This document shows positions 3 through 10,013 of a stretch of 10,559 nucleotides of DNA, one piece after another (position 1 is the first letter of the stretch; every line of letters starts with the position of its first letter). A model generated the notes under the pieces. That model had not been told where the DNA came from. It saw only the letters and a program-made list of their open reading frames with translations, and made no database searches. A program made the translations under genes and the position numbers. This DNA comes from Chloroflexota bacterium (GTDB lineage Bacteria; Chloroflexota; Dehalococcoidia; UBA2979): the NCBI GenBank assembly GCA_027593235.1, contig JAQCIU010000064.1:1-10559 (forward strand), in the 5' to 3' direction.

Positions 3-833
3 ATGAAACCAATCCCCCTCGACGCCTTCCCAACCCCCCTCCAAGGCACAATCGACGCCCACGCCCACACCTGGGACCCCCAACTCCTCGCCGACCGCCC
101 CGCCGTCCTCAACCGCGCCTGGACCGCCGGCCTGGAAGCCATCATCGAGGTCGGCTGCGACGTCCCCACCTCCCGCTCCGCGCTCGCACTCGCCCAGCAA
201 GACCCCCGCGTCCACCCCGTCGTCGGCCTCCACCCCCACGAGGCCCAACACCTCGAGGCACAGCGCGCCGACCTCGAAACCCTCGCCGCCAGCGGCGACT
301 TCGTCGCCGTCGGCGAAATCGGCCTCGACTTCTTTCGCAACATCTCCCCGCCGGACCAGCAGGACACCGCCTTCCGCTGGCAGCTCCAGCTCGCCAGGAC
401 CCACGATCTCCCCGTCGTCATCCACTCCCGCGACGCCGATGACGCCACCTACGCCATCCTCAAGGACTGGGCGGCGCGGGTCGGCCGCTACCTCGGCGCC
501 GACCGCGAGATCGGCATGCTCCACTGCTTCGCCGGCGACGCGGAGTTGGCCGCGCGCTACCTCGAACTCGGGTTCCTCATCTCCGTCCCCGGCACCGTTA
601 CCTATCCGAACAATGACCGAGGTCAAAGCGTGGCGCGGTCAGTGCCGCTCGCAGGTATGCTCTTGGAGACGGACTGCCCGTACTTGACCCCGGTCCCCTT
701 CCGGGGCCGGCGCAACGAACCCGCTTGCGTGGTCGAAACGGCGCGATTCGTGGCAAAGTGTCGGGGCGAAGCGCCCCAGCTCGTGGCGACCGCCACCGCT
801 GAGAACGCGCGCCGTCTCTTCGCGATCGGATGA
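3..833 (+). CDS. tatD: TatD family metal-dependent hydrolase/DNase
   Basis: All TatD motifs in order: IDAHAH, VGLHPH, GEIGLDF, IHSRDA, HCF, LLETDCPYL, GRRNEP, and C-terminal ENARRLF. The start is at the window edge, so upstream signals cannot be checked. Confidence 0.95.
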   Translation: MKPIPLDAFPTPLQGTIDAHAHTWDPQLLADRPAVLNRAWTAGLEAIIEVGCDVPTSRSALALAQQDPRVHPVVGLHPHEAQHLEAQRADLETLAASGDFVAVGEIGLDFFRNISPPDQQDTAFRWQLQLARTHDLPVVIHSRDADDATYAILKDWAARVGRYLGADREIGMLHCFAGDAELAARYLELGFLISVPGTVTYPNNDRGQSVARSVPLAGMLLETDCPYLTPVPFRGRRNEPACVVETARFVAKCRGEAPQLVATATAENARRLFAIG

Positions 834-887
834 CCGATACCGGTTCGCGGTCGGACGCCCGACGAGCGTCCGCGGGAGCAGCAACAG

Positions 888-2318
888 ATGACGATGGCGA
901 CCAGCCGCGACGTTGAACACGGCCTCGTCGGCGGCGTGTGCGCCGGCATTGCCTCCCGCTACCGCTACCCCATCCCCGCCGTGCGCGCCGCCACCGTCGC
1001 GCTCTCCGTCGCCACCGCTGGCCTCGGCGGCATCGCCTACCTCGCGCTCTGGCGCGCCCTGCCCTCCGGCAGCTCGCCGCGCGGCGCCCTGCTCACCACC
1101 ATCGAGGACGATGGCGCCCCAGCGCCCACCCCGTTCAGCGACACCATCGTCACCCTCGAGGCCCCAGCTACCACCGAGGCCCCAGCTACCAGCGAATCCA
1201 CCGAGGCCATCGAGTCAACCGAGACCCCCGCGCCAACCGAGACATCGACCTCCGCCGCCGACCCAATGCTCGCACCGGTCCGCTCCACCCAGGCCGCCGC
1301 CGGAACCCGCATCACCCCGCAGGCGAAGAGCGCCACCACCAGTCCTCCGAGCGTCCAATCGCTGTACGGCCCCGTCGCCCAGGACCTCCCGCTCGTCCGA
1401 GAGCAGATCGGTGCCGTCGCCCGCGGCGTCGGCTTCGACTTCCTCGAACGCATGCTCGAACAGCAGCTCGCCACCACCGGCAAGCTCATGCGCCCCGCCA
1501 TCGCCCTGCTCGCCGGCCGCCTCGGCGACTACAACCTCGACCGCATCGTCCCGCTCGCCGCCAGCGTCGAGCTGCTCCACACCGCCACCCTCGTCCACGA
1601 CGACGTCATCGACGAAGCCGACCAGCGTCGAGGTAACGACACCGCCAACTCCCTCTTCGGCAACTCCGCCAGCGTCATGCTCGGCGACTACATGTTCGCC
1701 AACTCCGCAGACCTCATCGCCCGCACCAACAACATCCAGGTCGTCCAGAACTTCGCCGCCACCCTCATGATGATCGTCCGCGGTGAACTCAACCAGGACG
1801 TCACCGTCTTCGAATACTCAGAAGACGTGCAGCGCTACCTCGACCGCATCATCGGCAAAACCGCCAGCCTCTTCGCCACCGCTGCCGAGAACGGCGCCCT
1901 CGTCTGCAACGCCCCTGCCGACCAGGTCGCCGCCATGCGCGAATACGGCATGAAGCTCGGCATCGCCTTCCAAATCGTCGACGACATCCTCGACTTCACC
2001 GGCGACCCCGCAGTCATGGGCAAACCCGCCGTCGGCTCAGACCTCCGAGGCGGCACCCTCACCCTCCCCGCCATCCTCTACATGCAGGCCGAACCCAACG
2101 ACAACCCCATCAAACGCGCCTTCGCCGGCCAACGCCGCCAGGCCAACCTCGACCGCGCCATCGCCGACATCCTCGCCGGCCCCTACATCACCGAAACCAT
2201 CGAAACCGCCCACCGCTTCGGCCGCGAAGCCCGCGAAGCGCTCTCCGCGCTCCCCCCCGGCGAAACCCGAGACACCCTCGCCGCCCTCGTCGACTACGTC
2301 CTCGATAGGGATTCGTAG
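888..2318 (+). CDS. PspC-like domain fused to a long-chain trans-polyprenyl diphosphate synthase (HepT/IspB-like)
   Basis: The C-terminal part has GKLMRP, FARM HDDVID (DDxxD at 1599-1613), RRG, GKTA, SARM FQIVDDILD (1980-1994) and GKPAVGSDL. The N-terminal about 58 aa match the PspC pattern (GVCAGIA...VR...hydrophobic stretch...YLALWRALP). GGGAG at 874-878 precedes the ATG at 888. There is no stop codon between the domains. Confidence 0.9.
   Translation: MTMATSRDVEHGLVGGVCAGIASRYRYPIPAVRAATVALSVATAGLGGIAYLALWRALPSGSSPRGALLTTIEDDGAPAPTPFSDTIVTLEAPATTEAPATSESTEAIESTETPAPTETSTSAADPMLAPVRSTQAAAGTRITPQAKSATTSPPSVQSLYGPVAQDLPLVREQIGAVARGVGFDFLERMLEQQLATTGKLMRPAIALLAGRLGDYNLDRIVPLAASVELLHTATLVHDDVIDEADQRRGNDTANSLFGNSASVMLGDYMFANSADLIARTNNIQVVQNFAATLMMIVRGELNQDVTVFEYSEDVQRYLDRIIGKTASLFATAAENGALVCNAPADQVAAMREYGMKLGIAFQIVDDILDFTGDPAVMGKPAVGSDLRGGTLTLPAILYMQAEPNDNPIKRAFAGQRRQANLDRAIADILAGPYITETIETAHRFGREAREALSALPPGETRDTLAALVDYVLDRDS
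1157..1250 (+). repeat. In-frame 18-bp tandem repeat decaying to 9-bp periodicity in the PspC-synthase linker
   Basis: CGAGGCCCCAGCTACCA occurs at 1157-1173 and 1175-1191, followed by degenerate units. It encodes EAPATT-EAPATS-ESTEAI-ESTETP-APTETS. Confidence 0.85.
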
Positions 2319-2321
2319 ACC

Positions 2322-2361
2322 AGCGAACTTCCTTTATCCTATTGCTACCCATCAGTTCGCT
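2322..2361. promoter_or_regulatory. 8-bp inverted repeat enclosing an AT-rich spacer with a -10-like hexamer, upstream of the STAND gene
   Basis: AGCGAACT (2322-2329) and AGTTCGCT (2354-2361) flank 24 nt containing TATCCT (2335-2340). A GAGG ribosome-binding-site-like motif at 2389-2392 lies 7 nt before ATG 2400. Confidence 0.4.
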
Positions 2362-2399
2362 TCGGCTTCGGGCACCTGTGTTTGCCTTGAGGTTTAACG

Positions 2400-5300
2400 A
2401 TGACAAGGCCTGGCGGTGTTGCTGACAAGTTGGGCAACGAATACGAGGGGCTGTGGACGGCCTCCGCACTGCTCGATGTCCTCGACGGTGAATTCGACGG
2501 ACTTGTGGTCGAGCCGATCTCCGAAGAAGGAGACGGCGTTGAATATTTACTGACGGGGTCATCAGCTCACGAGTACTACTCGATCAAGCGGAGGCGCTCG
2601 GATGGCCGCGAGTGGAGTCCCGCAGCACTCTTGAATGAGAAGGCGCTCAACGGGCGGAGCGTCATCGGGGACCTCTTCGCGAAGTTGGCGCTCAGTGACT
2701 CGACGTCCGCCGTGTTCGCCTACGGGACCAGTGCATCTCGTTTCCGCGAGATCACTGATCGGGCCAGAAACGCCCCAGACGATCAAACGTTCGAGAAGCT
2801 AATTGCGGGTAGCGATCAGCTATCAGCGGACTTTCACGATCGAATACAGCCCGCACTCGTGTTCGCGGGACTGGTGCCCCGCGATGCTTTAGGGCGCCTG
2901 CGTCTTAAGACCGCGGATGATGCAACGCTCCGGGCGAGCCTTGACCAGAGGATCCGCGCCCGCTTCCGCATGCGTGCCAGCACCAACATCGACTCGCTTT
3001 TGGTGCAGGCAGTGCTGGCCGATCTGATACTCGCCAACTTCGGACGGCGGATCACGGCTAATGAGATCTGGTCAGCTCTCGACGAACACGACATCGTTGC
3101 AAGAGCCTGGGGGCCGGGTGAAAGGGAGCGTATCGAGTCGATCACTGATGCCTTTCTGTCGTCCGTCGAGGCGCTGTCCATCAACGGAAACAGCATTCCG
3201 CGTACCGTAGCCCAGGACGTTAGCTCCGCGATCCTCGCCGAAGCAAAGTGGGTGATGATCGAGGGCGCTGCCGGCGCTGGCAAGAGCAACGTCCTCGCTC
3301 AAGTTGCGCGAGAACTGAAGCGACAGGGCGTCACGTGCCTCACCATCAGACTCGACACTGTTTCCGGGAGCGTGTCATCTCGGCGGCTCGGTGAAGCGAT
3401 CGGACTGCCTGATTCGCCAGCGTTGGTGCTGGGAGAAATCGAACTTGGGCGACCGGCGGTGCTCCTCATCGACCAAGTCGATGCGATCAGTGTTGTATCG
3501 GGCCGAAATCCGTCGCTTCAGGTCGCCGTAGACGAGATCCTATCCGAGGCTCAGCGGTACCCCCGATCTCCGGCTCGTTTTTGCCTCACGAACGTTTGAT
3601 CTGGAGAACGATCCACGACTGAGACGACTCGCAAACGACGCGGCACGCGTGACGCGTTTGCCAGTACCGCCGCTCTCGCGCGACGACGTCGCCGAAGCTT
3701 TACGAGCGGCAGGGCTCGATCCAGCTACGCTGACGGACCAACAGATTGAGATAATCCGCAATCCCTTGCATTTATACCTTCACCTTGAAGGCCCGCCGGG
3801 CAATACCAGCTTCGCCTCGGCGGGCGCCTTGTTCGACGCGTTCTGGGACGAGAAGCGCCGCCGAATTGACTCGACTGTGGGTGGGGGGGCTTTGCCGAGA
3901 GCGTCGCGAAGCTCAGCGAAACGCTGAGCCAACGGCGGACTCTAGAGGCCCCACTGCACTTGATGGATTCAATCACCGCGACGCTCGATGTCATCGCATC
4001 AGAATCCGTCGTCCTTCACAGCGATCACGGGGTTCGGTTCTTTCATGAGTCGTTCTTTGACTATGCATTCGCCCGCAGCTTCGCGGCGGCCGGCGAGGAT
4101 CCGATTGCGTGGCTGAAGAGCGGAACTCAGTCTCTTTTCCGACGGTCTCAGCTACGCCAAATCATCGCGTTCATGCGAGAACGGGACCGAGAACAGTACT
4201 ACCGAGCTCTAAGAGCAATATTCTCCGATCCCGAGATCCGGTTTCATCTCAAGAAGATGGTTCTCCAGTGGCTGTCAACCGTCGACGATCCAACGGGGGT
4301 CGAATGGGGCATCGTCGAGGACTGTACCGAGGTGCTGACACCGCATCATTGGAGCCTTGTCGGAGCCTCGACCGCCTGGTTTGACGTCGTGAATGGACTG
4401 GGCCGTCCGACCGCCTGGCTTGAGTCTGACAACCCTTCGGTCGTCGACGCGGCTGTCTCCGCAATATCGATGCCCTCGATCACCAAGAGACGACCGGAAG
4501 AGGTCGCCAAGATCTTCGAGGCGTTCGTCGGTCGAGGTCCGGATTGGGACGCTCGCCTAAGCTGGCTGATGGATCGCGTGGCATTACATGAGCCCTGCTT
4601 CGCCGACCTGTTCCAAACACTAACTGAGGTGGGCAGTCTCGATTCGAGAATCGCCCCCCAGACCCACGGTCTCGATTGGTGGTCGATGCTGTACTCGGCG
4701 GCGGCTATCGCTCCTCAATCGACCGCGGCAGCCATCGGCGCCTGGTTCGACCGCCGTCTTGCTTTGGGAGAAGCGGCTGATGAGGCAGACCCGTTTCACA
4801 GTCGCGACGGGAACGGTCTCGGCCAACACAGTCAGTGGAGCTTCGAAGTCATCCAGAGGTCGGCGGAAGGCGCCCCCCGGGAGTTTGCCGATGCCTTGTT
4901 CCCGAGGATCTCGTCCATGGCTACTGCGACGAACGGGGAAGGCTGGTTCCTCACCACGAACCCCGAACTTTCCGATCCCTTCGACCAGATCGTGGACGCA
5001 ACCGCGAGGGCGCTCGCGCGGCTCGCTGAGACAAGCCCAGCTGAGTTCCGCAACCTCGTGTCCACGTCGGTCCAGCATTCACCCCCGCCTACAGCCGCCC
5101 TATTGATGCGCGGCTGGGTCGGCAATGCTCAAGCGTTCGCCGAGGAGATCATCGAATTCGTCCTCAAGGACCCCACTGAACGACTGACCCTCGGTTACGA
5201 CATCGGTGGCAGCGGGTCCGACATCTCGCGCGCAGCCATCTGGGCTGCTACCGCCCATTGCTCTCGAGAAAGCCTGGATCGCCTTTCGGAAGCCCTGATC

Positions 5301-5900
5301 TATTTCACCCCGCCTTGGGAAGTCACCAACGGACGGTGGCGGGGGTCGACCGAACTGTCGCTGGCGTATGCGGTCGTTCCACAAAGAAGAACGGAAAAGC
5401 TGATAGCTCGAATTCAGGAACTTGAGCGGAAGTTCCCGAATCGCGCAGATGCGCCGCCACCGCCGGAACCGTCACCCGGCATCACCACCGTGATGGTCAG
5501 TTCGCCGCTGCCGGAGCAGGCGTACGAGCAGATGAGCGACGAACAGTGGCTCAACGCGATGCGACGCTACTCGAACGATTAGAGCTCAGGCGGTGGTGAG
5601 GAGCTCCGGGGTGGAGCCGTCGAGCTTTCGCGAGAATTTCAGCGAATCGTGACGACCAGTACTGATCGCTTCGTCTCACTAGGCGAGCTGATGGATGCTG
5701 AGCTCAATCACCACTACTTCGCCGCGCTCATCGATGGACTTGTGCCTATCGGACAGCCACGGGTCGGGACCCCGTCCGAGATCGTTCGGGTCCTCCGGCG
5801 GGCTCGATCTCTGTCCAAGCCGGAACTCTCGTCAGCCATCGCGCGAGGAATCGGTGCTGGCCGCGATGCCGCACGCCACAGTGCCGCAAAACGATCATGG
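2400..5900 (+). pseudogene. Interrupted nuclease-STAND NTPase-helical repeat gene (Avs/AVAST-like anti-phage protein)
   Basis: ORFs 2400-3599, 3649-3927, 3960-5582 and the first about 75 codons of 5649-7628 join into one gene. The N-terminus GGVADKLGNEYE..W...DGVEY...EYYSIKR resembles a PD-(D/E)xK nuclease. Walker A GAAGAGKS is at 3264-3287, Walker B VLLIDQVD at 3459-3482, and a winged-helix-type FFHESFFDYAFAR follows. Lesions: +1 in C5 at 3560-3564, -1 in G7 at 3883-3889, TAG at 5580-5582. The 3' boundary is approximate. Confidence 0.8.
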
Positions 5901-5966
5901 TTCAGCTCATCCCCCACCCAGGGATCCCGAACCCAAACCTCCCCCCTCCCCTCGATGCCAACTCTC

Positions 5967-6002
5967 TCGACACCCCCATCCGAGGTCCGCTACATTCTGC
6001 CG
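5967..6002 (+). promoter_or_regulatory. Sigma70-type promoter predicting a leaderless GMC transcript
   Basis: TCGACA (5967-5972, 5/6 match to TTGACA), 18-nt spacer, TACATT (5991-5996), then 6 nt to ATG 6003. No Shine-Dalgarno sequence is present. Confidence 0.65.
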
Positions 6003-7628
6003 ATGCCAAACGAGCCCGTAGGCGTCTTGATCATCGGTGCCGGTGCATCCGGCGGTGCCTTCGCCTGGAGCATCGCCGACGCCGGCATGTCCGTCCTCTG
6101 CCTCGAGCAGGGCCCGTGGATGCGGCAGTCCGACTACCCCACCAACACCATGGACTGGGAGTCCCGCGGCGCCACCGAGTTCTCCCCCAACCCCAACACC
6201 CGCATCACCGCGCGTGAGGGCACAACCGGGGGCCCCGCCGACTACCCAGTTAACGCCGACGGCACCCCGATCAAGCCCGTCATGTTCAACGCCGTCGGCG
6301 GCAGCACCATCCTCTGGGCCGCCCACTTCCCCAGGTTCACCCCGCGCGACTTCCGAGTCCGCACCGACGACGGCGTCGCCGACGACTGGCCCATCACCTA
6401 CGAAACCCTCGAACCCTTCTACGCCCTCAACGACCAGATGACCGGCGTCTCCGGCCTCGCCGGCGACCCCGCCTACCCGTACCACGAACCCCCGCTGCCA
6501 CCCCTGCCAATCGGCGCCACCGGCAACGCCCTCGCCCGAGGTTTTGAAAAGCTCGGCTGGCACTGGTGGCCCTCCGACAGCGCGATCATTTCGCAGAACT
6601 ACAACGGCCGCGAAGCCTGCATCAACCTCTCCTCCTGCGGCTCCGGCTGCACCCATGGGGCGAAGGCCAGCACCGACATCACCTACTGGCCGTACGCCCA
6701 GCGCAAAGGCGTCGAGCTCCGAACCGGCTGCCGCGTCCGCGAGATCACCGTCGGCGAGAACGGCATGGCCGACGGCGTCCGCTACTACGACGAGGACGGC
6801 GTCCTCCAGGAGCAAAAGGCCGAAATCGTCGTCGTCGCCTCCAATGGGATCGGCACGCCTCGGCTGCTGCTCAACTCCGCCAGCGAGCGGCACCCCGACG
6901 GCCTCGCCAACAGCAGCGGCCTCGTCGGCAAGAACCTGATGTTCCACCCCTACGCCCGCATCCGCGGCGTCTTCCCCGAACCGATGGAAGGCAAAGGCCC
7001 CGGCGGCTGCTCCATCTGGAGCCACGAGTTCTACGAGACCGACCGCTCCCGAGGCTTCGTCCGCGGCTACTCCTACGAGATGTCGCGCGGCGCCGGCCCC
7101 GCCGCCACCGCCGTCGGCGGCGCCGCCCGTGGCGACATCCCCTGGGGCCCCGGCCACCACGACGCCTTCGACGCCCTCCACAACCACACCGCCGGCATGG
7201 TCGGCATCACCGAAGACCTCCCTGACGAAGCCAACACCGTCACCCTCGACCCCGACCTGAAGGACAGCAGCGGCATCCCCGCCCCGAAGATCACCTACAC
7301 CCTCAGCGAGAACAGCCGCCGCCAGCTCGCCCACGCCGTCGAGCGCGGCGACGAAGTCCTCCGCGCCGCCGGAGCCACCGACACCTGGTTCGAATCCCCC
7401 ATCGAGCAGGCCGGCTGGCACCTGATGGGCACCGCCCGCATGGGCACCGACCCGAAGACCTCGGTGGTCAACGAGTGGGGGCGCTCCCACGACGTGAAGA
7501 ACCTCTTCATTATCGACGGCAGCATCTTCGTCACCTCGGCGGGTGTGAACCCCACCTCGACGATCCAGGCGCTCGCGCTCTACATCGCCGACTCGATCAA
7601 GCGGAACATCGGGAACCTGTTCGACTGA
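6003..7628 (+). CDS. GMC family FAD-dependent oxidoreductase (glucose/gluconate dehydrogenase flavoprotein-like large subunit)
   Basis: Starting at MPNEPVGVLIIGAGASGG places the Rossmann GxGxxG motif about 12 aa in, as usual. Other motifs: VGGSTILW, DWPITYETLEPFY, CINLSSCGSGC, GTPRLLLNS, VGKNLMFH, HLMGTARMG, GVNPTSTIQALA. The ORF-track start at 5649 is rejected. Confidence 0.93.
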   Translation: MPNEPVGVLIIGAGASGGAFAWSIADAGMSVLCLEQGPWMRQSDYPTNTMDWESRGATEFSPNPNTRITAREGTTGGPADYPVNADGTPIKPVMFNAVGGSTILWAAHFPRFTPRDFRVRTDDGVADDWPITYETLEPFYALNDQMTGVSGLAGDPAYPYHEPPLPPLPIGATGNALARGFEKLGWHWWPSDSAIISQNYNGREACINLSSCGSGCTHGAKASTDITYWPYAQRKGVELRTGCRVREITVGENGMADGVRYYDEDGVLQEQKAEIVVVASNGIGTPRLLLNSASERHPDGLANSSGLVGKNLMFHPYARIRGVFPEPMEGKGPGGCSIWSHEFYETDRSRGFVRGYSYEMSRGAGPAATAVGGAARGDIPWGPGHHDAFDALHNHTAGMVGITEDLPDEANTVTLDPDLKDSSGIPAPKITYTLSENSRRQLAHAVERGDEVLRAAGATDTWFESPIEQAGWHLMGTARMGTDPKTSVVNEWGRSHDVKNLFIIDGSIFVTSAGVNPTSTIQALALYIADSIKRNIGNLFD

Positions 7629-8074
7629 TGAGCACAGACACCGCCGCCCACCCCGCGCTCGACGACACCGCCTTCTTCGCCGCGTTCGTCGACACGCTGA
7701 TCCCGCCCAGTGCCGCGTCCGAATCGCGTGGCAAGCTCCCCGGCGCCGGTAGTCTCGGACTCGCTCCGGGCGTGGCGGCCGCGATCCGGTCGAGCGCCCA
7801 GCTCGCGCCGGTCGTCGAGGCCGGGTTGGCGGCGATCCGCAGCGAGGGCTTCGCAGCCCTCGAACTCTCGCGGCGCGTCGAACTGGTCGAAGCCCAACTC
7901 ACCGCGCATCCGGATTTGATCCGCGCGGTCACGACGCCGCTCTACTACGCCTACTACCAGCACCCGACGGTGCTGATTGGCCTCGGAGTGCCGCCCCGCC
8001 CGCCGTTCCCGGAGGGGTACGAGGTCGAGGCGACCGACCCGGAGCTGTTGGCCCTGCTTCGCTCTCGCGCGTAG
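7628..8074 (+). CDS. Gluconate 2-dehydrogenase subunit 3-like small partner protein (148 aa)
   Basis: The ATG overlaps the GMC stop (TGATG at 7626-7630), implying translational coupling. DTLIP...PGAGSLG and YYAYYQHP..LIGLG..P.P..P.GY fit the small subunits that accompany GMC dehydrogenases. Confidence 0.75.
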   Translation: MSTDTAAHPALDDTAFFAAFVDTLIPPSAASESRGKLPGAGSLGLAPGVAAAIRSSAQLAPVVEAGLAAIRSEGFAALELSRRVELVEAQLTAHPDLIRAVTTPLYYAYYQHPTVLIGLGVPPRPPFPEGYEVEATDPELLALLRSRA

Positions 8075-8096: not shown

Positions 8097-8918
8097 CTAG
8101 TCCGCTAGCTCCGAACTCGCCGGGACCGCCGGCACCTCGGGCAGCATCGCGGACACCACACGGCGCGACTCCGACACGAACGAGGCCGACTTCAGCTCCC
8201 GTTCCGCCTGGGCGCGCACGAACTCGTGCATCACCTGTTCCAGGCGGCCCGCCAGATCCGGATCGATGCGGATGCGGCCCGCCTCCTCGTAAGGCAGCGC
8301 CTGGAAGGCGCGGAGCACGCGCAGCACGCGCGGATCGAGGGCGATCGCTTCGGGGTGCTTGGTGAGCGCAGCACGGCTGACGACGCCGCCGCCTCGGTGG
8401 GTCCAGTAGGCGTCGTTGGCGTCGACGGGCGCGCCGGTTTCGAGGCAGTTCTCAAGCTCGGGTCGGAAGCCGGTGGCGGTGAGTAGGCCGAGTTCGTAGC
8501 GCCGGGTAACAAGCTGCACGCCGTCGCCGCGCGCGAGCCGGCGCAGCGACGCCTCGAGGAGTTCATAGACCTCGAGGGCGTCTTCGTGCTCGACGGTGAA
8601 GCGGTCGGCGAGCTCCAGCAGGTACATGGCGGTGCTGAGCTGCTCGAGGTCGCGGTGGAGCACGAGGAACGGCTCGACGGTCTGCGCCTGCGTGACGATG
8701 TCGAGCGACCGGCCGTGGGCGAGGACGATCTCGGAGAGCGTGAGCGGTTCGAGGTGGCCGGCCATTTTGCTGCGGGAGCGGAGGAGGCCCTTGGCGACGA
8801 CGTCGATCTTGCCTCGGTGGGGGGTGAGGAGGGTGATGATGCGATCGGCGTCACCGAGGCGGCGGTGTTTGAGAATGATGGCAGTGGTTTTGGTGACGCG
8901 GGGGATGCGGGATGGCAT
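8097..8918 (-). CDS. recO: DNA repair protein RecO
   Basis: Reads MPSRIPRVTKTTAIILKHRRLGDADRIITLLTPHRGKIDVVAKG...SKMAGHLEP, then ELGLLTATGFRPEL and C-terminal ELKS. The start is placed at the ATG at 8918 rather than 9050. Confidence 0.95.
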   Translation of the reverse strand: MPSRIPRVTKTTAIILKHRRLGDADRIITLLTPHRGKIDVVAKGLLRSRSKMAGHLEPLTLSEIVLAHGRSLDIVTQAQTVEPFLVLHRDLEQLSTAMYLLELADRFTVEHEDALEVYELLEASLRRLARGDGVQLVTRRYELGLLTATGFRPELENCLETGAPVDANDAYWTHRGGGVVSRAALTKHPEAIALDPRVLRVLRAFQALPYEEAGRIRIDPDLAGRLEQVMHEFVRAQAERELKSASFVSESRRVVSAMLPEVPAVPASSELAD

Positions 8919-8930
8919 TGGTTGAGGGTA
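8919..8930 (-). promoter_or_regulatory. -10-like element predicting a leaderless recO transcript
   Basis: The minus strand reads TACCCT-caacca-ATG, the same TANNNT + 6 nt geometry as the GMC gene. There is no Shine-Dalgarno at normal spacing and no clear -35. Confidence 0.45.
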
Positions 8931-9055
8931 GCGCCTTGGACTTCCTCCGGGATGGGGCACGGGACTCGGATTGATCGGGCTGGTTCGGGGCGTGATTGAG
9001 TGAGCGGCGGACGGTGGAGCGGTTGAGCGACCTCGGTGGTCGCGAACCAATCGGC

Positions 9056-9110
9056 GGCTCCGCCCCCGCGCCCCCGGCCGGGGGGCTCCAGGTCGCCCCC
9101 CAGCGCCCCC
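9056..9110. repeat. G/C-run palindromic element (REP-like; potential G-quadruplex on the minus strand)
   Basis: Four C-runs at 9063-9067, 9071-9075, 9096-9101 and 9106-9110. A perfect palindrome CCCCCGGCCGGGGG at 9071-9084 overlaps a 7-bp stem GGGGGGC/GCCCCCC (9080-9086/9095-9101). Confidence 0.6.
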
Positions 9111-9286
9111 TACCTAAACCCGGGGCGTGAGGGCCTCGGGTGATTCGTGGCTTGGCCTCCGGGCGGATGGGCGAATTCGTGGGGATGCCGATCGGTGGAT
9201 CAGGAACTGCGCTTCGCCGGGCGGTGATGGGGGTAGGTGGGGCGTTCGTCCGGACCGCCGAAAGGAGCCGGCGACTGACCCGCGCC

Positions 9287-9309
9287 AGCCGGAAGCCGGA
9301 AGCCGGAAG
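9287..9309. repeat. Heptamer tandem repeat (AGCCGGA)x3.3
   Basis: Read directly: AGCCGGA AGCCGGA AGCCGGA AG. Confidence 0.85.
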
Positions 9310-9383
9310 ATGGAGGAACAGAGCACTCCCGCCTCAACGGCGACGCTGGCCACAGACGGCCACCTCCGGCGCGAACGGAGGGG

Positions 9384-10013
9384 CTAGACCTGCTGGCGGA
9401 ACTCGAGGGCGCGGCCGAGGGTGACGTCGTCGGCGTATTCGAGGTCAGCGCCGGCGGGGAGGCCGCGAGCGAGGCGCGTGACGGAGAGGCCTAGCGGCTG
9501 GAGCAAACGACCGAGGTACATGGACGTCGCTTCGCCCTCGAGGTTGGGGTTGGTGGCGACGATGACCTCGACGACCTCCGTATCGACGTCGCGGATGCGG
9601 GTCAGTAGTTCGGCGATCTTGAGCTCCTCGGGACCAATGCCGTCCGAGGGCGAGATGACGCCGTGGAGGACGTGGTAGAGGCCGCGGAAGCCGCCGGTGC
9701 GTTCGATCGCCTGGACATCGAGGGGTTCTTCGACGACGCAAATGATGGTGCGGTCGCGCGCTGTATCGAGGCAAATCCGGCACGGGTTGGTGTCGGTGAG
9801 GTTCTGGCAGCGCTGGCAGAGCACGATCGATCGCTTGACCTCGATGAGCGCCTCGGCGAGGTCGACGGCTTCTTCCTCCGGGGCGCGGAGGACGTGGTAA
9901 GCCAGGCGCTGTGCGCTCTTCGGGCCGATGCCCGGCAGCCGGTGGAATGCCTCGATGAGGCGATTGATGGGGGAAGCGGCGGCGCCACCGTGCTGGCCGT
10001 TGCGGTCGTTCAC
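9384..10013 (-). CDS. recR: Recombination mediator RecR
   Basis: HhH motif LPGIGPKSAQRLAYH, C4 zinc finger CQRC...CRIC, ICVVE, YHVLHG, Toprim EVIVATNPNLEGEAT, and C-terminal LEYADDVTL. GTG start. Confidence 0.97.
   Translation of the reverse strand: MNDRNGQHGGAAASPINRLIEAFHRLPGIGPKSAQRLAYHVLRAPEEEAVDLAEALIEVKRSIVLCQRCQNLTDTNPCRICLDTARDRTIICVVEEPLDVQAIERTGGFRGLYHVLHGVISPSDGIGPEELKIAELLTRIRDVDTEVVEVIVATNPNLEGEATSMYLGRLLQPLGLSVTRLARGLPAGADLEYADDVTLGRALEFRQQV

What the first reader, a model, noticed from the sequence alone, without database searches (positions are those of the whole stretch)
888..2318. PspC membrane domain fused to a polyprenyl diphosphate synthase
Seen: one uninterrupted 476-aa ORF with a PspC-like N-terminus (about 903-1061), a roughly 100-aa low-complexity tether and an intact synthase with both DDxxD motifs. 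Known: PspC is a membrane component of the phage-shock/envelope-stress response, and HepT/IspB-type synthases are normally soluble stand-alone enzymes making quinone side chains. Ala five residues before the first DDxxD (HTATLVHDD) indicates a long-chain product. Inference: this may be a membrane-tethered or stress-gated prenyl synthase linking envelope or proton-motive-force stress to isoprenoid/quinone supply. I do not recognise this as a described architecture.
Basis: partly seen in the sequence, partly recalled or inferred. Interest (0 to 1): 0.75.

Follow-up and report, generated by a model that had tools for sequence, protein, structure and literature searches.

The report
Membrane-anchored menaquinone side-chain synthase
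This gene really does join a small PspC-type membrane-anchor domain to the enzyme that builds the long isoprenoid tail of menaquinone; the fusion is conserved in part of one family of uncultured Chloroflexota, and I found no paper that describes it.

Summary
ORF 888-2318 (+) is one uninterrupted 476-aa frame. It has a PspC domain (PF04024, 42.9 bits, cut-off 25, res 7-60), a disordered T/A/S/P linker, and an intact long-chain trans-polyprenyl diphosphate synthase (PF00348, 208.9 bits) with both DDxxD motifs.

It is not an assembly or annotation artefact:
- 71 of the 120 best database homologues carry both domains.
- I confirmed the single-frame fusion in 21 of 99 species genomes of the same GTDB family (8 of 21 genera).
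- An independent metagenome reproduces the junction DNA exactly.

tatD lies directly upstream in all 27 loci tested, fused or not. The fused gene is therefore the positional orthologue of the ordinary stand-alone synthase.

The genome has a classical men cluster including MenA. Fused relatives keep a separate short-chain synthase.

Best reading: a membrane-tethered supplier of the menaquinone side chain.

The stress-gating idea is not supported. PspA is missing from 5 of 6 fused genomes, and the linker is variable and disordered.

One puzzle remains: charge distribution predicts that the enzyme lies outside the cell, which its chemistry excludes.

I rate it a new variant of a known kind, of moderate interest.

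The parts
3..833 (+). tatD-family hydrolase gene, conserved upstream neighbour
   Evidence: PF01026, 255 bits. A tatD homologue lies directly upstream of the synthase gene in all 27 relatives' loci tested, fused or unfused.
834..887 (+). 54-nt spacer with a Shine-Dalgarno-like GGGAG at 874-878, 9 nt before ATG 888
   Evidence: Read from the sequence. M1 is a Met in 68 of 72 fused homologues.
888..2318 (+). Whole fusion gene, 476 codons plus stop
   Evidence: The identical 476-aa protein is in NCBI, ENA and nr.
906..1067 (+). PspC domain (res 7-60): short helix 17-25, invariant Arg33, long hydrophobic helix 29-57 with invariant Gly45, Tyr51, Trp55 and Pro59
   Evidence: PF04024, 42.9 bits against a cut-off of 25. 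Genome scan 47.2 bits. Invariant columns in 72 fused proteins. AF2 helices. dN/dS 0.17-0.53 against 11 relatives.
1068..1352 (+). Low-complexity, acidic T/A/S/P linker (res 61-155), disordered and variable
   Evidence: pLDDT under 50 for res 61-144. Linker length is 17-111 aa (median 48.5) among 72 fused proteins, with median net charge -2. GC3 is 0.84.
1353..2315 (+). Long-chain trans-polyprenyl diphosphate synthase domain (res 156-476)
   Evidence: PF00348, 208.9 bits. Best NCBIfam matches are solanesyl-PP synthase (222.5 bits) and HepT (215.7 bits), both below their equivalog cut-offs. Best PDB matches are octaprenyl- (4jxn, 193 bits), decaprenyl- (3mzv) and solanesyl-PP synthases.
1584..1613 (+). 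Chain-length position Ala233 (-5), Thr234 (-4) and the first aspartate-rich motif D238-D242
   Evidence: Invariant A233 and D238/D239/D242 in 72 of 72. The second synthase of fused relatives has Phe at -5.
1980..1994 (+). Second aspartate-rich motif D365-D369
   Evidence: Invariant in 72 of 72.

Best explanation
The gene encodes one polypeptide. Its C-terminal 320 residues are an ordinary homodimer-type long-chain all-trans polyprenyl diphosphate synthase, with a product somewhere in the C35-C50 range. It is held at the cytoplasmic membrane by an N-terminal PspC-type helical anchor through a flexible, disordered linker.

The enzyme elongates a short allylic primer, made by a separate short-chain synthase, with IPP. 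Its very hydrophobic product is released next to the membrane. There the integral-membrane prenyltransferase MenA attaches it to 1,4-dihydroxy-2-naphthoate to make (demethyl)menaquinone.

In this protein the PspC domain serves as a membrane-targeting or anchoring module, perhaps also as a self- or partner-association module. It does not act as part of a PspA stress circuit.

Shown: the fusion, its conservation, purifying selection on the anchor, the long-chain sequence class, positional orthology with unfused synthases, and the men pathway in the genome.

Inferred: membrane location, cytoplasmic orientation of the enzyme, exact chain length, and hand-over to MenA.
For: 1. The fusion is real and conserved.
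- 71 of the 120 best homologues have PF04024 plus PF00348.
- A single open frame holds both parts in 21 of 99 family genomes.
- The junction DNA is identical in an independent study, and a second contig there joins PspC to the synthase through a different linker.

2. The anchor is under selection.
- Invariant residues are R33, G45, Y51, W55 and P59. At 90% or more: G15, G16, V17, C18, A22, V32, A44, L54.
- dN/dS is 0.17-0.53 in 11 of 11 computable pairs.
- The linker is free to vary from 17 to 111 aa.

3. There is a hydrophobic helix. The Kyte-Doolittle score is 1.53-2.47 in the 72 fused proteins. AF2 models helix 29-57 at pLDDT 82-86.

4. The enzyme is of the long-chain class.
- The top PDB matches are octaprenyl-, decaprenyl-, solanesyl- and heptaprenyl-PP synthases (164-193 bits). 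Entries named as short-chain synthases score 137 bits or less.
- Ala is at -5 in 72 of 72. The second synthase of four fused relatives has Phe there.

5. It is the positional orthologue of stand-alone synthases. tatD lies directly upstream in 27 of 27 loci.

6. The pathway context fits.
- MenA scores 337.8 bits (cut-off 264) and sits in a cluster with MenF, MenD, MenH and MenE, all above their cut-offs.
- No futalosine-pathway MqnA/D was found.
- No HepS small subunit was found.

7. It does not depend on PspA, which was not found in 5 of 6 fused genomes.
Against: 1. Charge distribution. K+R residues are more numerous on the N-terminal side of the long helix than in the 15 residues after it in 70 of 72 fused proteins. 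Under the positive-inside rule this predicts N-in/C-out, which would put the enzyme outside the cell.

2. The window protein's helix is only marginally hydrophobic (1.71). It could be a peripheral or re-entrant anchor and not a true transmembrane span.

3. No experiment or transcript or peptide data bear on it. RNA contigs covered only parts of 1557-2002 and came from relatives.

4. Close relatives do well without the anchor. Unfused forms are interleaved with fused ones on the tree: at least 13 changes on 121 proteins, and 3 on 31 DNA-verified genomes after correcting one label. Any benefit is therefore dispensable.

5. Product length and the MenA link are inferred from sequence class and gene content only.

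6. In this assembly no second synthase was found, so the division of labour rests on relatives.
Confidence: 0.7

Rival explanations
1. Stress- or pmf-gated synthase. The PspC domain senses membrane or proton-motive-force stress and changes the activity, oligomeric state or location of the attached synthase, coupling quinone supply to envelope state.
For: PspC domains are used as N-terminal input modules of histidine kinases and are argued to be membrane-signal sensors (PMC11237479 and PMC9239133, passages read).

The fused domain keeps the hallmark conserved Arg between its two helices and an invariant Gly in the long helix. In E. coli PspC a conserved TM glycine, G48, is needed for signalling (PMC3068692, passages). 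I did not test whether it is equivalent to G45.
Against: - The linker is disordered, non-conserved and 17-111 aa long. This argues against allosteric coupling.
- PspA was not found in 5 of 6 fused genomes.
- There is no regulator or psp gene beside it. The conserved neighbour is tatD.
- The fusion has been lost or never gained in close relatives.
Confidence: 0.12
2. Two products from one frame. Translation mainly restarts inside the linker (ATG 1266 or another start) and gives a normal soluble synthase, while the upstream part is a PspC protein with a tail.
For: The closest stand-alone PspC paralogues in this family are PspC plus a low-complexity Ala/Pro-rich tail, like the first about 150 residues here.

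Some very close homologues are annotated as 332-aa or 331-aa synthases without PspC (P0024, P0028).
Against: - No stop separates the parts in 21 genomes.
- M127 is a Met in 1 of 72 fused proteins, and 53 of 72 have no Met in the linker.
- No Shine-Dalgarno-like sequence precedes ATG 1266.
- GC3 stays high through the linker.
Confidence: 0.06
3. Type II signal-anchor. As the charge distribution predicts, the N-terminus stays inside, and the linker and the synthase-like domain are exported to act outside the cytoplasmic membrane on some other substrate.
For: There is an N-side K+R excess in 70 of 72 fused proteins. The acidic Thr/Ser/Pro/Ala-rich linker resembles linkers of exported proteins of monoderm bacteria; that resemblance is recalled, not tested.
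Against: - All catalytic residues of an IPP-condensing enzyme are invariant, and IPP is a cytoplasmic metabolite.
- It is the positional orthologue of unfused cytoplasmic synthases.
- It is the only long-chain-type synthase found in five fused relatives.
- PspC topology is itself contested. Predictors disagree, and a C-terminus-in form has been proposed (PMC3068692, passages). A comparative study describes the domain as two helices, the first cryptic (PMC11237479).
Confidence: 0.05
4. Artefact: a missed stop, a frameshift or a chimeric assembly joins two separate genes.
For: The window is a whole 10.6-kb contig of an 89.7%-complete metagenome-type assembly.
Against: - The same fusion is found in 20 other species genomes, several of them in one or a few contigs.
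- It is found in 71 protein clusters.
- An independent run gives identical junction DNA.
Confidence: 0.01

Closest known systems
Long-chain trans-polyprenyl diphosphate synthases (IspB-type octaprenyl-PP synthase, e.g. PDB 4jxn, 3wjk; decaprenyl-PP synthase 3mzv; solanesyl-PP synthases 9k99; HepT 9kp1)
   Same: Same fold family and catalytic machinery over res 156-476, with both DDxxD motifs and a small residue at -5. Sequence matches of 152-193 bits. Same presumed role of supplying a quinone side chain.
   Different: Those enzymes are stand-alone proteins of about 320 aa; this one carries about 155 extra N-terminal residues with a membrane helix. It reaches no NCBIfam equivalog cut-off, so the product length cannot be named. 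No HepS partner was found, so it is unlikely to be a HepS/HepT-type heteromer.
PspC of the proteobacterial phage-shock system (E. coli, Yersinia)
   Same: The Pfam PspC domain is above its gathering score. It has a short first helix, a conserved Arg, then a long Gly-containing hydrophobic helix, as described for the domain in PMC11237479.
   Different: It lacks the C-terminal leucine-zipper part and scores far below the PspC equivalogs (26.8 against 104 bits). No PspA was found in 5 of 6 fused genomes. An enzyme replaces the signalling tail.
PspC domains used as N-terminal modules of larger proteins (actinobacterial PspC-LiaF/LiaI-TM-histidine kinases; PspC-Toastrack proteins)
   Same: PspC sits at the extreme N-terminus of a multidomain protein (PMC11237479, PMC9239133).
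   Different: Those fusions add further TM segments and signalling domains. Here a metabolic enzyme follows directly, with no further TM helix. Neither paper's main text contains 'prenyl'.
Stand-alone PspC paralogue of the same family (in this genome C55:19525-19695, minus strand)
   Same: It is the nearest relative of the fused N-terminus: 43-50% identity in family members and 30% in this genome. It is also followed by a low-complexity Ala/Pro-rich tail.
   Different: It is a separate gene elsewhere in the genome and not next to the synthase. It is a likely donor of the anchor, but this is not shown.

Membership tests
trans-isoprenyl diphosphate synthases (Pfam PF00348) | Profile match above the gathering score | tested here: met
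   208.9 bits against 27; 211.1 bits in the genome scan.
trans-isoprenyl diphosphate synthases (Pfam PF00348) | Two aspartate-rich DDxxD motifs | tested here: met
   D238-D242 and D365-D369, invariant in 72 of 72 fused homologues.
Long-chain (C35-C50) subclass of trans-synthases | Small residue, not an aromatic one, at positions -5 and -4 before the first DDxxD. The rule is recalled from the literature on chain-length determination and was not read here. | tested here: met
   Ala233 and Thr234. The paralogous second synthase of four fused relatives has Phe at -5.
Long-chain (C35-C50) subclass of trans-synthases | Closest characterised relatives are long-chain enzymes | tested here: met
   The top PDB matches are octaprenyl-, decaprenyl-, solanesyl- and heptaprenyl-PP synthases, 164-193 bits.
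Named equivalogs (solanesyl-PP synthase TIGR02749, HepT TIGR02748, IspB NF008140) | Score above the curated equivalog cut-off | tested here: not met
   222.5 against 383.2; 215.7 against 456.55; 175.2 against 412. No specific product length can be assigned.
Long-chain (C35-C50) subclass of trans-synthases | Product chain length measured | not testable with these tools
   Needs an enzyme assay or quinone analysis.
Heteromeric HepS/HepT-type synthase | Presence of the small subunit (PF07307) | tested here: not met
   No match in the 89.7%-complete genome. The control finds it in B. subtilis.
PspC domain (Pfam PF04024) | Profile match above the gathering score | tested here: met
   42.9 bits against 25. 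43.9 bits in the homologue P0021. Precomputed in 71 of 120 homologues.
PspC domain (Pfam PF04024) | Two helices, the first cryptic, flanking a conserved arginine (PMC11237479, passage read) | tested here: met
   AF2 helices 17-25 and 29-57. R33 is invariant in 72 of 72.
PspC domain (Pfam PF04024) | Integral membrane location and topology | not testable with these tools
   There is only hydropathy (1.71) and charge counts, and these conflict with a cytoplasmic enzyme.
Phage-shock (Psp) stress system | PspA/IM30 effector present with PspC | tested here: not met
   PF04012 was not found in G000, G248, G247, G203 or G255, and was found in G284, so in 1 of 6 genomes. The genomes are 89-94% complete.
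Phage-shock (Psp) stress system | PspC equivalog score (TIGR02978, NF007973) | tested here: not met
   26.8 against 104 bits; 19.4 against 136 bits.

The most novel reading that the evidence does not exclude
The PspC module is more than a passive anchor. It may dock the synthase onto MenA or another membrane partner to form a menaquinone 'metabolon'.

The fusion may also have arisen twice within one family. The fused N-termini fall into two groups on the PspC tree, mirroring two fused clades on the synthase tree.

Independently of that, the fusion is a natural topology reporter. An IPP-dependent enzyme placed directly after the PspC helix would mean that the C-terminal side of a PspC domain faces the cytoplasm. 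That goes against the classical N-in/C-out model and the positive-inside count. It would bear on the long-running dispute about PspC topology.
Probability: 0.2. Interest if true: 0.6.

Novelty: new variant of a known kind. Interest (0 to 1): 0.4.

Why it matters
Long-chain prenyl diphosphate synthases make products that are essentially insoluble in water. How these products reach the membrane-embedded prenyltransferase is poorly understood. A lineage that covalently tethers the synthase to the membrane is a natural experiment on that hand-over.

The fusion also offers a simple handle for engineering quinone production.

It gives a clean test case for the contested topology and function of the widespread PspC domain outside the PspA system. 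The enzyme's need for cytoplasmic substrates fixes where the domain's C-terminal side must be.

The finding does not reveal a new pathway or chemistry, and close relatives live without the anchor. The significance is therefore moderate.

Tried and rejected
1. Sole trans-synthase idea. Only one PF00348 gene was found in this assembly. I considered that the fused enzyme also makes FPP. I rejected this as a likely assembly gap. Five fused relatives each have at least one further PF00348 gene; in four of them that gene carries Phe at -5. tblastn with those genes finds only the fused gene in this 89.7%-complete, 78-contig genome.

2. Expression. Metatranscriptome contigs (X17, X18) lay only on parts of 1557-2002, carried differences, and belong to relatives. 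They say nothing about the start site or about transcription of the PspC part.

3. Origin. A PspC-domain tree of 58 columns is too weak to decide between one and two origins. The best tree needs 2 changes, but starred branches force only 1. On the synthase tree of 31 DNA-verified genomes one row (L065) was mislabelled unfused by an E-value threshold. It is fused, which gives 3 changes and not 4.

4. Very close unfused homologues (P0024 at 95% domain identity, and P0028). I could not see their DNA, so I cannot tell real loss from a miscalled start. P0029 starts inside the synthase domain on a 2.5-kb contig and is probably truncated.

5. Literature. Flores-Kim and Darwin 2012 on PspC topology is not held. 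I know only its title from reference lists. The external data sets (OpARA) of PMC9239133, which list PspC architectures, could not be seen and might list this fusion. The one held supplement of PMC11237479 has no 'prenyl'.

6. Earlier notes of this scan hold nothing on this fusion.

7. I did not run complex prediction for anchor-MenA binding, because I do not claim that they bind.

8. Script one search stopped on an error after its first row. One search failed on wrong coordinates and was corrected.
Full report
THE OBSERVATION

The window has one uninterrupted 476-codon frame at 888-2318 on the + strand. Pfam finds two domains:
- A PspC domain at res 7-60 (PF04024, 42.9 bits; gathering score 25; E 4e-11).
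- A polyprenyl synthetase domain at res 185-422 (PF00348, 208.9 bits).

A scan of the whole genome finds the same PspC stretch at nt 906-1067 with 47.2 bits.

The frame starts at an ATG that lies 9 nt after a GGGAG. It lies 54 nt after the stop of a tatD-family gene at 3-833 (PF01026, 255 bits).

The most hydrophobic 19-residue window is res 36-54, with a Kyte-Doolittle score of 1.71.

I ran AlphaFold2 on an alignment of 72 fused homologues. Mean pLDDT was 80.5 and pTM 0.70. The model shows:
- A short helix at 17-25.
- A 29-residue helix at 29-57 (pLDDT 82-86).
- No structure at 61-144 (pLDDT under 50).
- A confident all-helical synthase domain from res 156.

Third-position GC is 0.93, 0.84 and 0.89 in the PspC part, the linker and the synthase. 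All three therefore look translated in this frame.

IS THE FUSION REAL?

Three lines of evidence say it is.

1. Among the 120 best database homologues, 71 carry both Pfam domains (388-486 aa) and 49 carry the synthase alone (288-344 aa). The exact 476-aa protein is on record in NCBI, ENA and nr.

2. I searched all 99 species genomes of the window's GTDB family with the first 61 residues. I then checked the DNA for a single open frame holding both parts. This held in 21 of 99 genomes, in 8 of 21 genera:
   - All 4 genomes of the window's own genus.
   - 4 of 4 in each of two further genera.
   - 3 of 4 in one genus and 3 of 12 in another.
   - The single genome of each of three further genera.

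   This is a lower bound. Weaker matches in other genomes were not all inspected.

3. I laid contigs of a run from a different study on the region. These contigs match 800-1046 and 1027-1454 with no difference and no gap. Another contig in that run joins the PspC part to the synthase part while skipping 354 nt, which is a relative with a different linker.

HOW WIDESPREAD IS IT?

Outside the family the fusion was not found.
- In an even sample of 201 genomes of the class, the N-terminal query matched next to the synthase only in the window's genome and one other genome of the same family.
- In a library of one representative per 50%-identity cluster, only 1 of the best 150 matches (P0021) is a PspC fusion. 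Nearly all the rest are proteins of about 320 aa.
- Source names, where given, are Chloroflexi/Chloroflexota or Dehalococcoidia bacterium.

SELECTION AND HISTORY

In the 72 fused proteins the anchor has:
- Invariant residues R33, G45, Y51, W55 and P59.
- Residues conserved at 90% or more: G15, G16, V17, C18, A22, V32, A44 and L54.

Codons 1-59 give dN/dS of 0.17-0.53 against 11 relatives. A twelfth pair was saturated.

By contrast the linker varies from 17 to 111 residues (median 48.5). It is A/P/S/T-rich and mildly acidic.

A tatD homologue lies directly upstream of the synthase in all 27 relatives' loci tested: 17 fused and 10 unfused, including three genomes of another family. The fused gene is therefore the positional orthologue of the ordinary stand-alone gene. 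The anchor was added in place.

Fused and unfused forms are interleaved on trees of the synthase domain:
- At least 13 changes on 121 proteins, of which 6 are forced by well-supported branches.
- 3 changes on 31 DNA-verified genomes, after correcting one mislabelled row.

The nearest relatives of the anchor are stand-alone PspC proteins of the same family that carry their own Ala/Pro-rich tail. They are a plausible donor.

On a weak tree of 58 columns the fused anchors form two groups. These match the two fused clades of the synthase tree. One origin with several losses, or two origins, both remain possible.

WHAT THE ENZYME IS

All residues expected of an active trans-prenyl diphosphate synthase are invariant, including both DDxxD motifs.

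The closest solved structures are:
- Octaprenyl-PP synthase (4jxn, 193 bits).
- Decaprenyl-PP synthase (3mzv, 182 bits).
- Solanesyl-PP synthase (9k99, 172 bits).
- Heptaprenyl-PP synthase component 2 (9kp1, 164 bits).

Entries named as farnesyl or geranylgeranyl synthases score 137 bits or less.

The best NCBIfam models are solanesyl-PP synthase and HepT, but neither reaches its equivalog cut-off. I therefore assign the long-chain class and not a chain length.

Position -5 is Ala in 72 of 72. That a small residue there marks long-chain enzymes is recalled knowledge. In-session support comes from five fused relatives. Each has at least one further PF00348 gene, and in four of them that gene reads Phe at -5.

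No HepS-type small subunit was found.

PATHWAY CONTEXT

The genome has:
- MenA (NF004751, 337.8 bits; cut-off 264), in a cluster with MenF, MenD, MenH and MenE, all above their cut-offs. The cluster also holds a MenC-like enolase-family gene that is below cut-off.
- No futalosine-pathway MqnA/D.
- A cis-prenyltransferase of the UppS family.
- A second UbiA-family gene. I take it to be haem O synthase from its sequence but did not test this.

In this assembly the fused gene is the only PF00348 gene. The assembly is 89.7% complete, the window is an entire 10.6-kb contig, and all five fused relatives searched have at least one further PF00348 gene. I therefore read this as an assembly gap.

HOW IT MOST LIKELY WORKS

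The simplest reading is a long-chain synthase tethered to the cytoplasmic membrane. It delivers its hydrophobic product at the membrane surface for MenA. I put this at about 0.7.

The steps that are shown and those that are inferred are listed under Best explanation.

- PspA was not found in 5 of the 6 fused genomes searched.
- The PspC part scores far below the PspC equivalogs.
- A floppy, unconserved linker is a poor signal conduit.

It is not excluded. The anchor keeps the conserved Arg that a comparative study describes between the two PspC helices (PMC11237479, passages). It also keeps an invariant Gly in the long helix. A conserved TM glycine is needed for signalling in E. coli PspC (PMC3068692, passages).

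THE UNRESOLVED POINT: TOPOLOGY

In 70 of 72 fused proteins there are more Lys+Arg on the N-terminal side of the long helix than in the 15 residues after it. Under the positive-inside rule that predicts N-in/C-out. The enzyme would then be outside the cell, away from IPP.

Three resolutions are possible:
- The domain forms a hairpin with both ends inside. The comparative study's 'two TM helices, the first cryptic' suggests this, as does one predictor cited for E. coli PspC.
- The helix is a peripheral or re-entrant anchor. Its hydropathy in the window protein is marginal.
- The rule fails here.

Because the enzyme's chemistry fixes its side of the membrane, this fusion is a natural reporter for PspC topology. 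That is the most interesting use of the finding.

COMPARISON WITH WHAT IS KNOWN, AND NOVELTY

Both domains are members of known families. The membership table lists which features were met and which were not.

The combination is present in public databases under automatic names. I found no description of it in print:
- 'PspC' with 'polyprenyl' returned 9 papers, none on this by title or abstract.
- 'PspC domain' with 'prenyl diphosphate synthase' returned 0 papers.
- A six-term search listed no paper that holds PspC together with a long-chain synthase term among its top 15.
- A search for membrane-anchored polyprenyl diphosphate synthases returned nothing relevant.
- The two large comparative studies of Psp proteins have no 'prenyl' in their main text, and neither does the one held supplement. 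Their external data tables could not be read.

I rate it a new variant of a known kind, with interest 0.4.

Noticed in passing
window 2319-5600: Directly downstream of the synthase the GC content drops from about 0.68-0.72 to 0.58-0.62 and the strong negative GC skew disappears. The stretch holds an ORF with weak STAND/AAA NTPase matches (2400-3599; nSTAND5 at 25.8 bits, below cut-off) and a 540-aa ORF with no Pfam match (3960-5582). It looks like an inserted island, possibly a defence-type NTPase gene that is split or broken.
   Followed up: partly
G000 contig C66:46435-46608, minus strand (locus L002): The best-scoring PspC paralogue of this genome (83.9 bits) has an in-frame TAG exactly where the other PspC domains have their conserved Trp after the hydrophobic helix. 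It is a pseudogene, a sequencing error or a read-through site.
   Followed up: no
G000 contig C55:19525-19695, minus strand (locus L004), and loci L039-L051: A family-specific stand-alone PspC protein with an amphipathic helix and an Ala/Pro-rich tail is the closest relative of the fused anchor (43-50% identity in relatives) and a possible donor of it. It is not adjacent to the synthase in any of the 13 loci seen.
   Followed up: partly
protein P0197: A 995-aa protein joins a squalene/phytoene synthase domain (PF00494, res 43-286) to a polyprenyl synthetase domain (PF00348, best stretch res 696-934, with two matched stretches). This is a different fusion of the same enzyme family.
   Followed up: no
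window 5649-8074: A GMC-family oxidoreductase (PF05199/PF00732) has an N-terminal extension of about 120 aa without a domain match. It is followed by an overlapping 199-aa ORF with no Pfam match. This may be a two-subunit dehydrogenase.
   Followed up: no
window 8097-10013, minus strand: recO (with an N-terminal extension of about 50 aa rich in Pro/Ser/Arg in the longest ORF) and recR lie close together on the minus strand.
   Followed up: no
G000 contig C16:34026-41567, minus strand (locus L021): A compact classical menaquinone cluster, MenF-MenD-MenH-MenA-(MenC-like)-MenE. The MenC-like gene is below all o-succinylbenzoate synthase cut-offs, and no MenB was recognised in the 18 kb inspected; the nearby crotonase is not MenB by its best matches.
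   Followed up: partly
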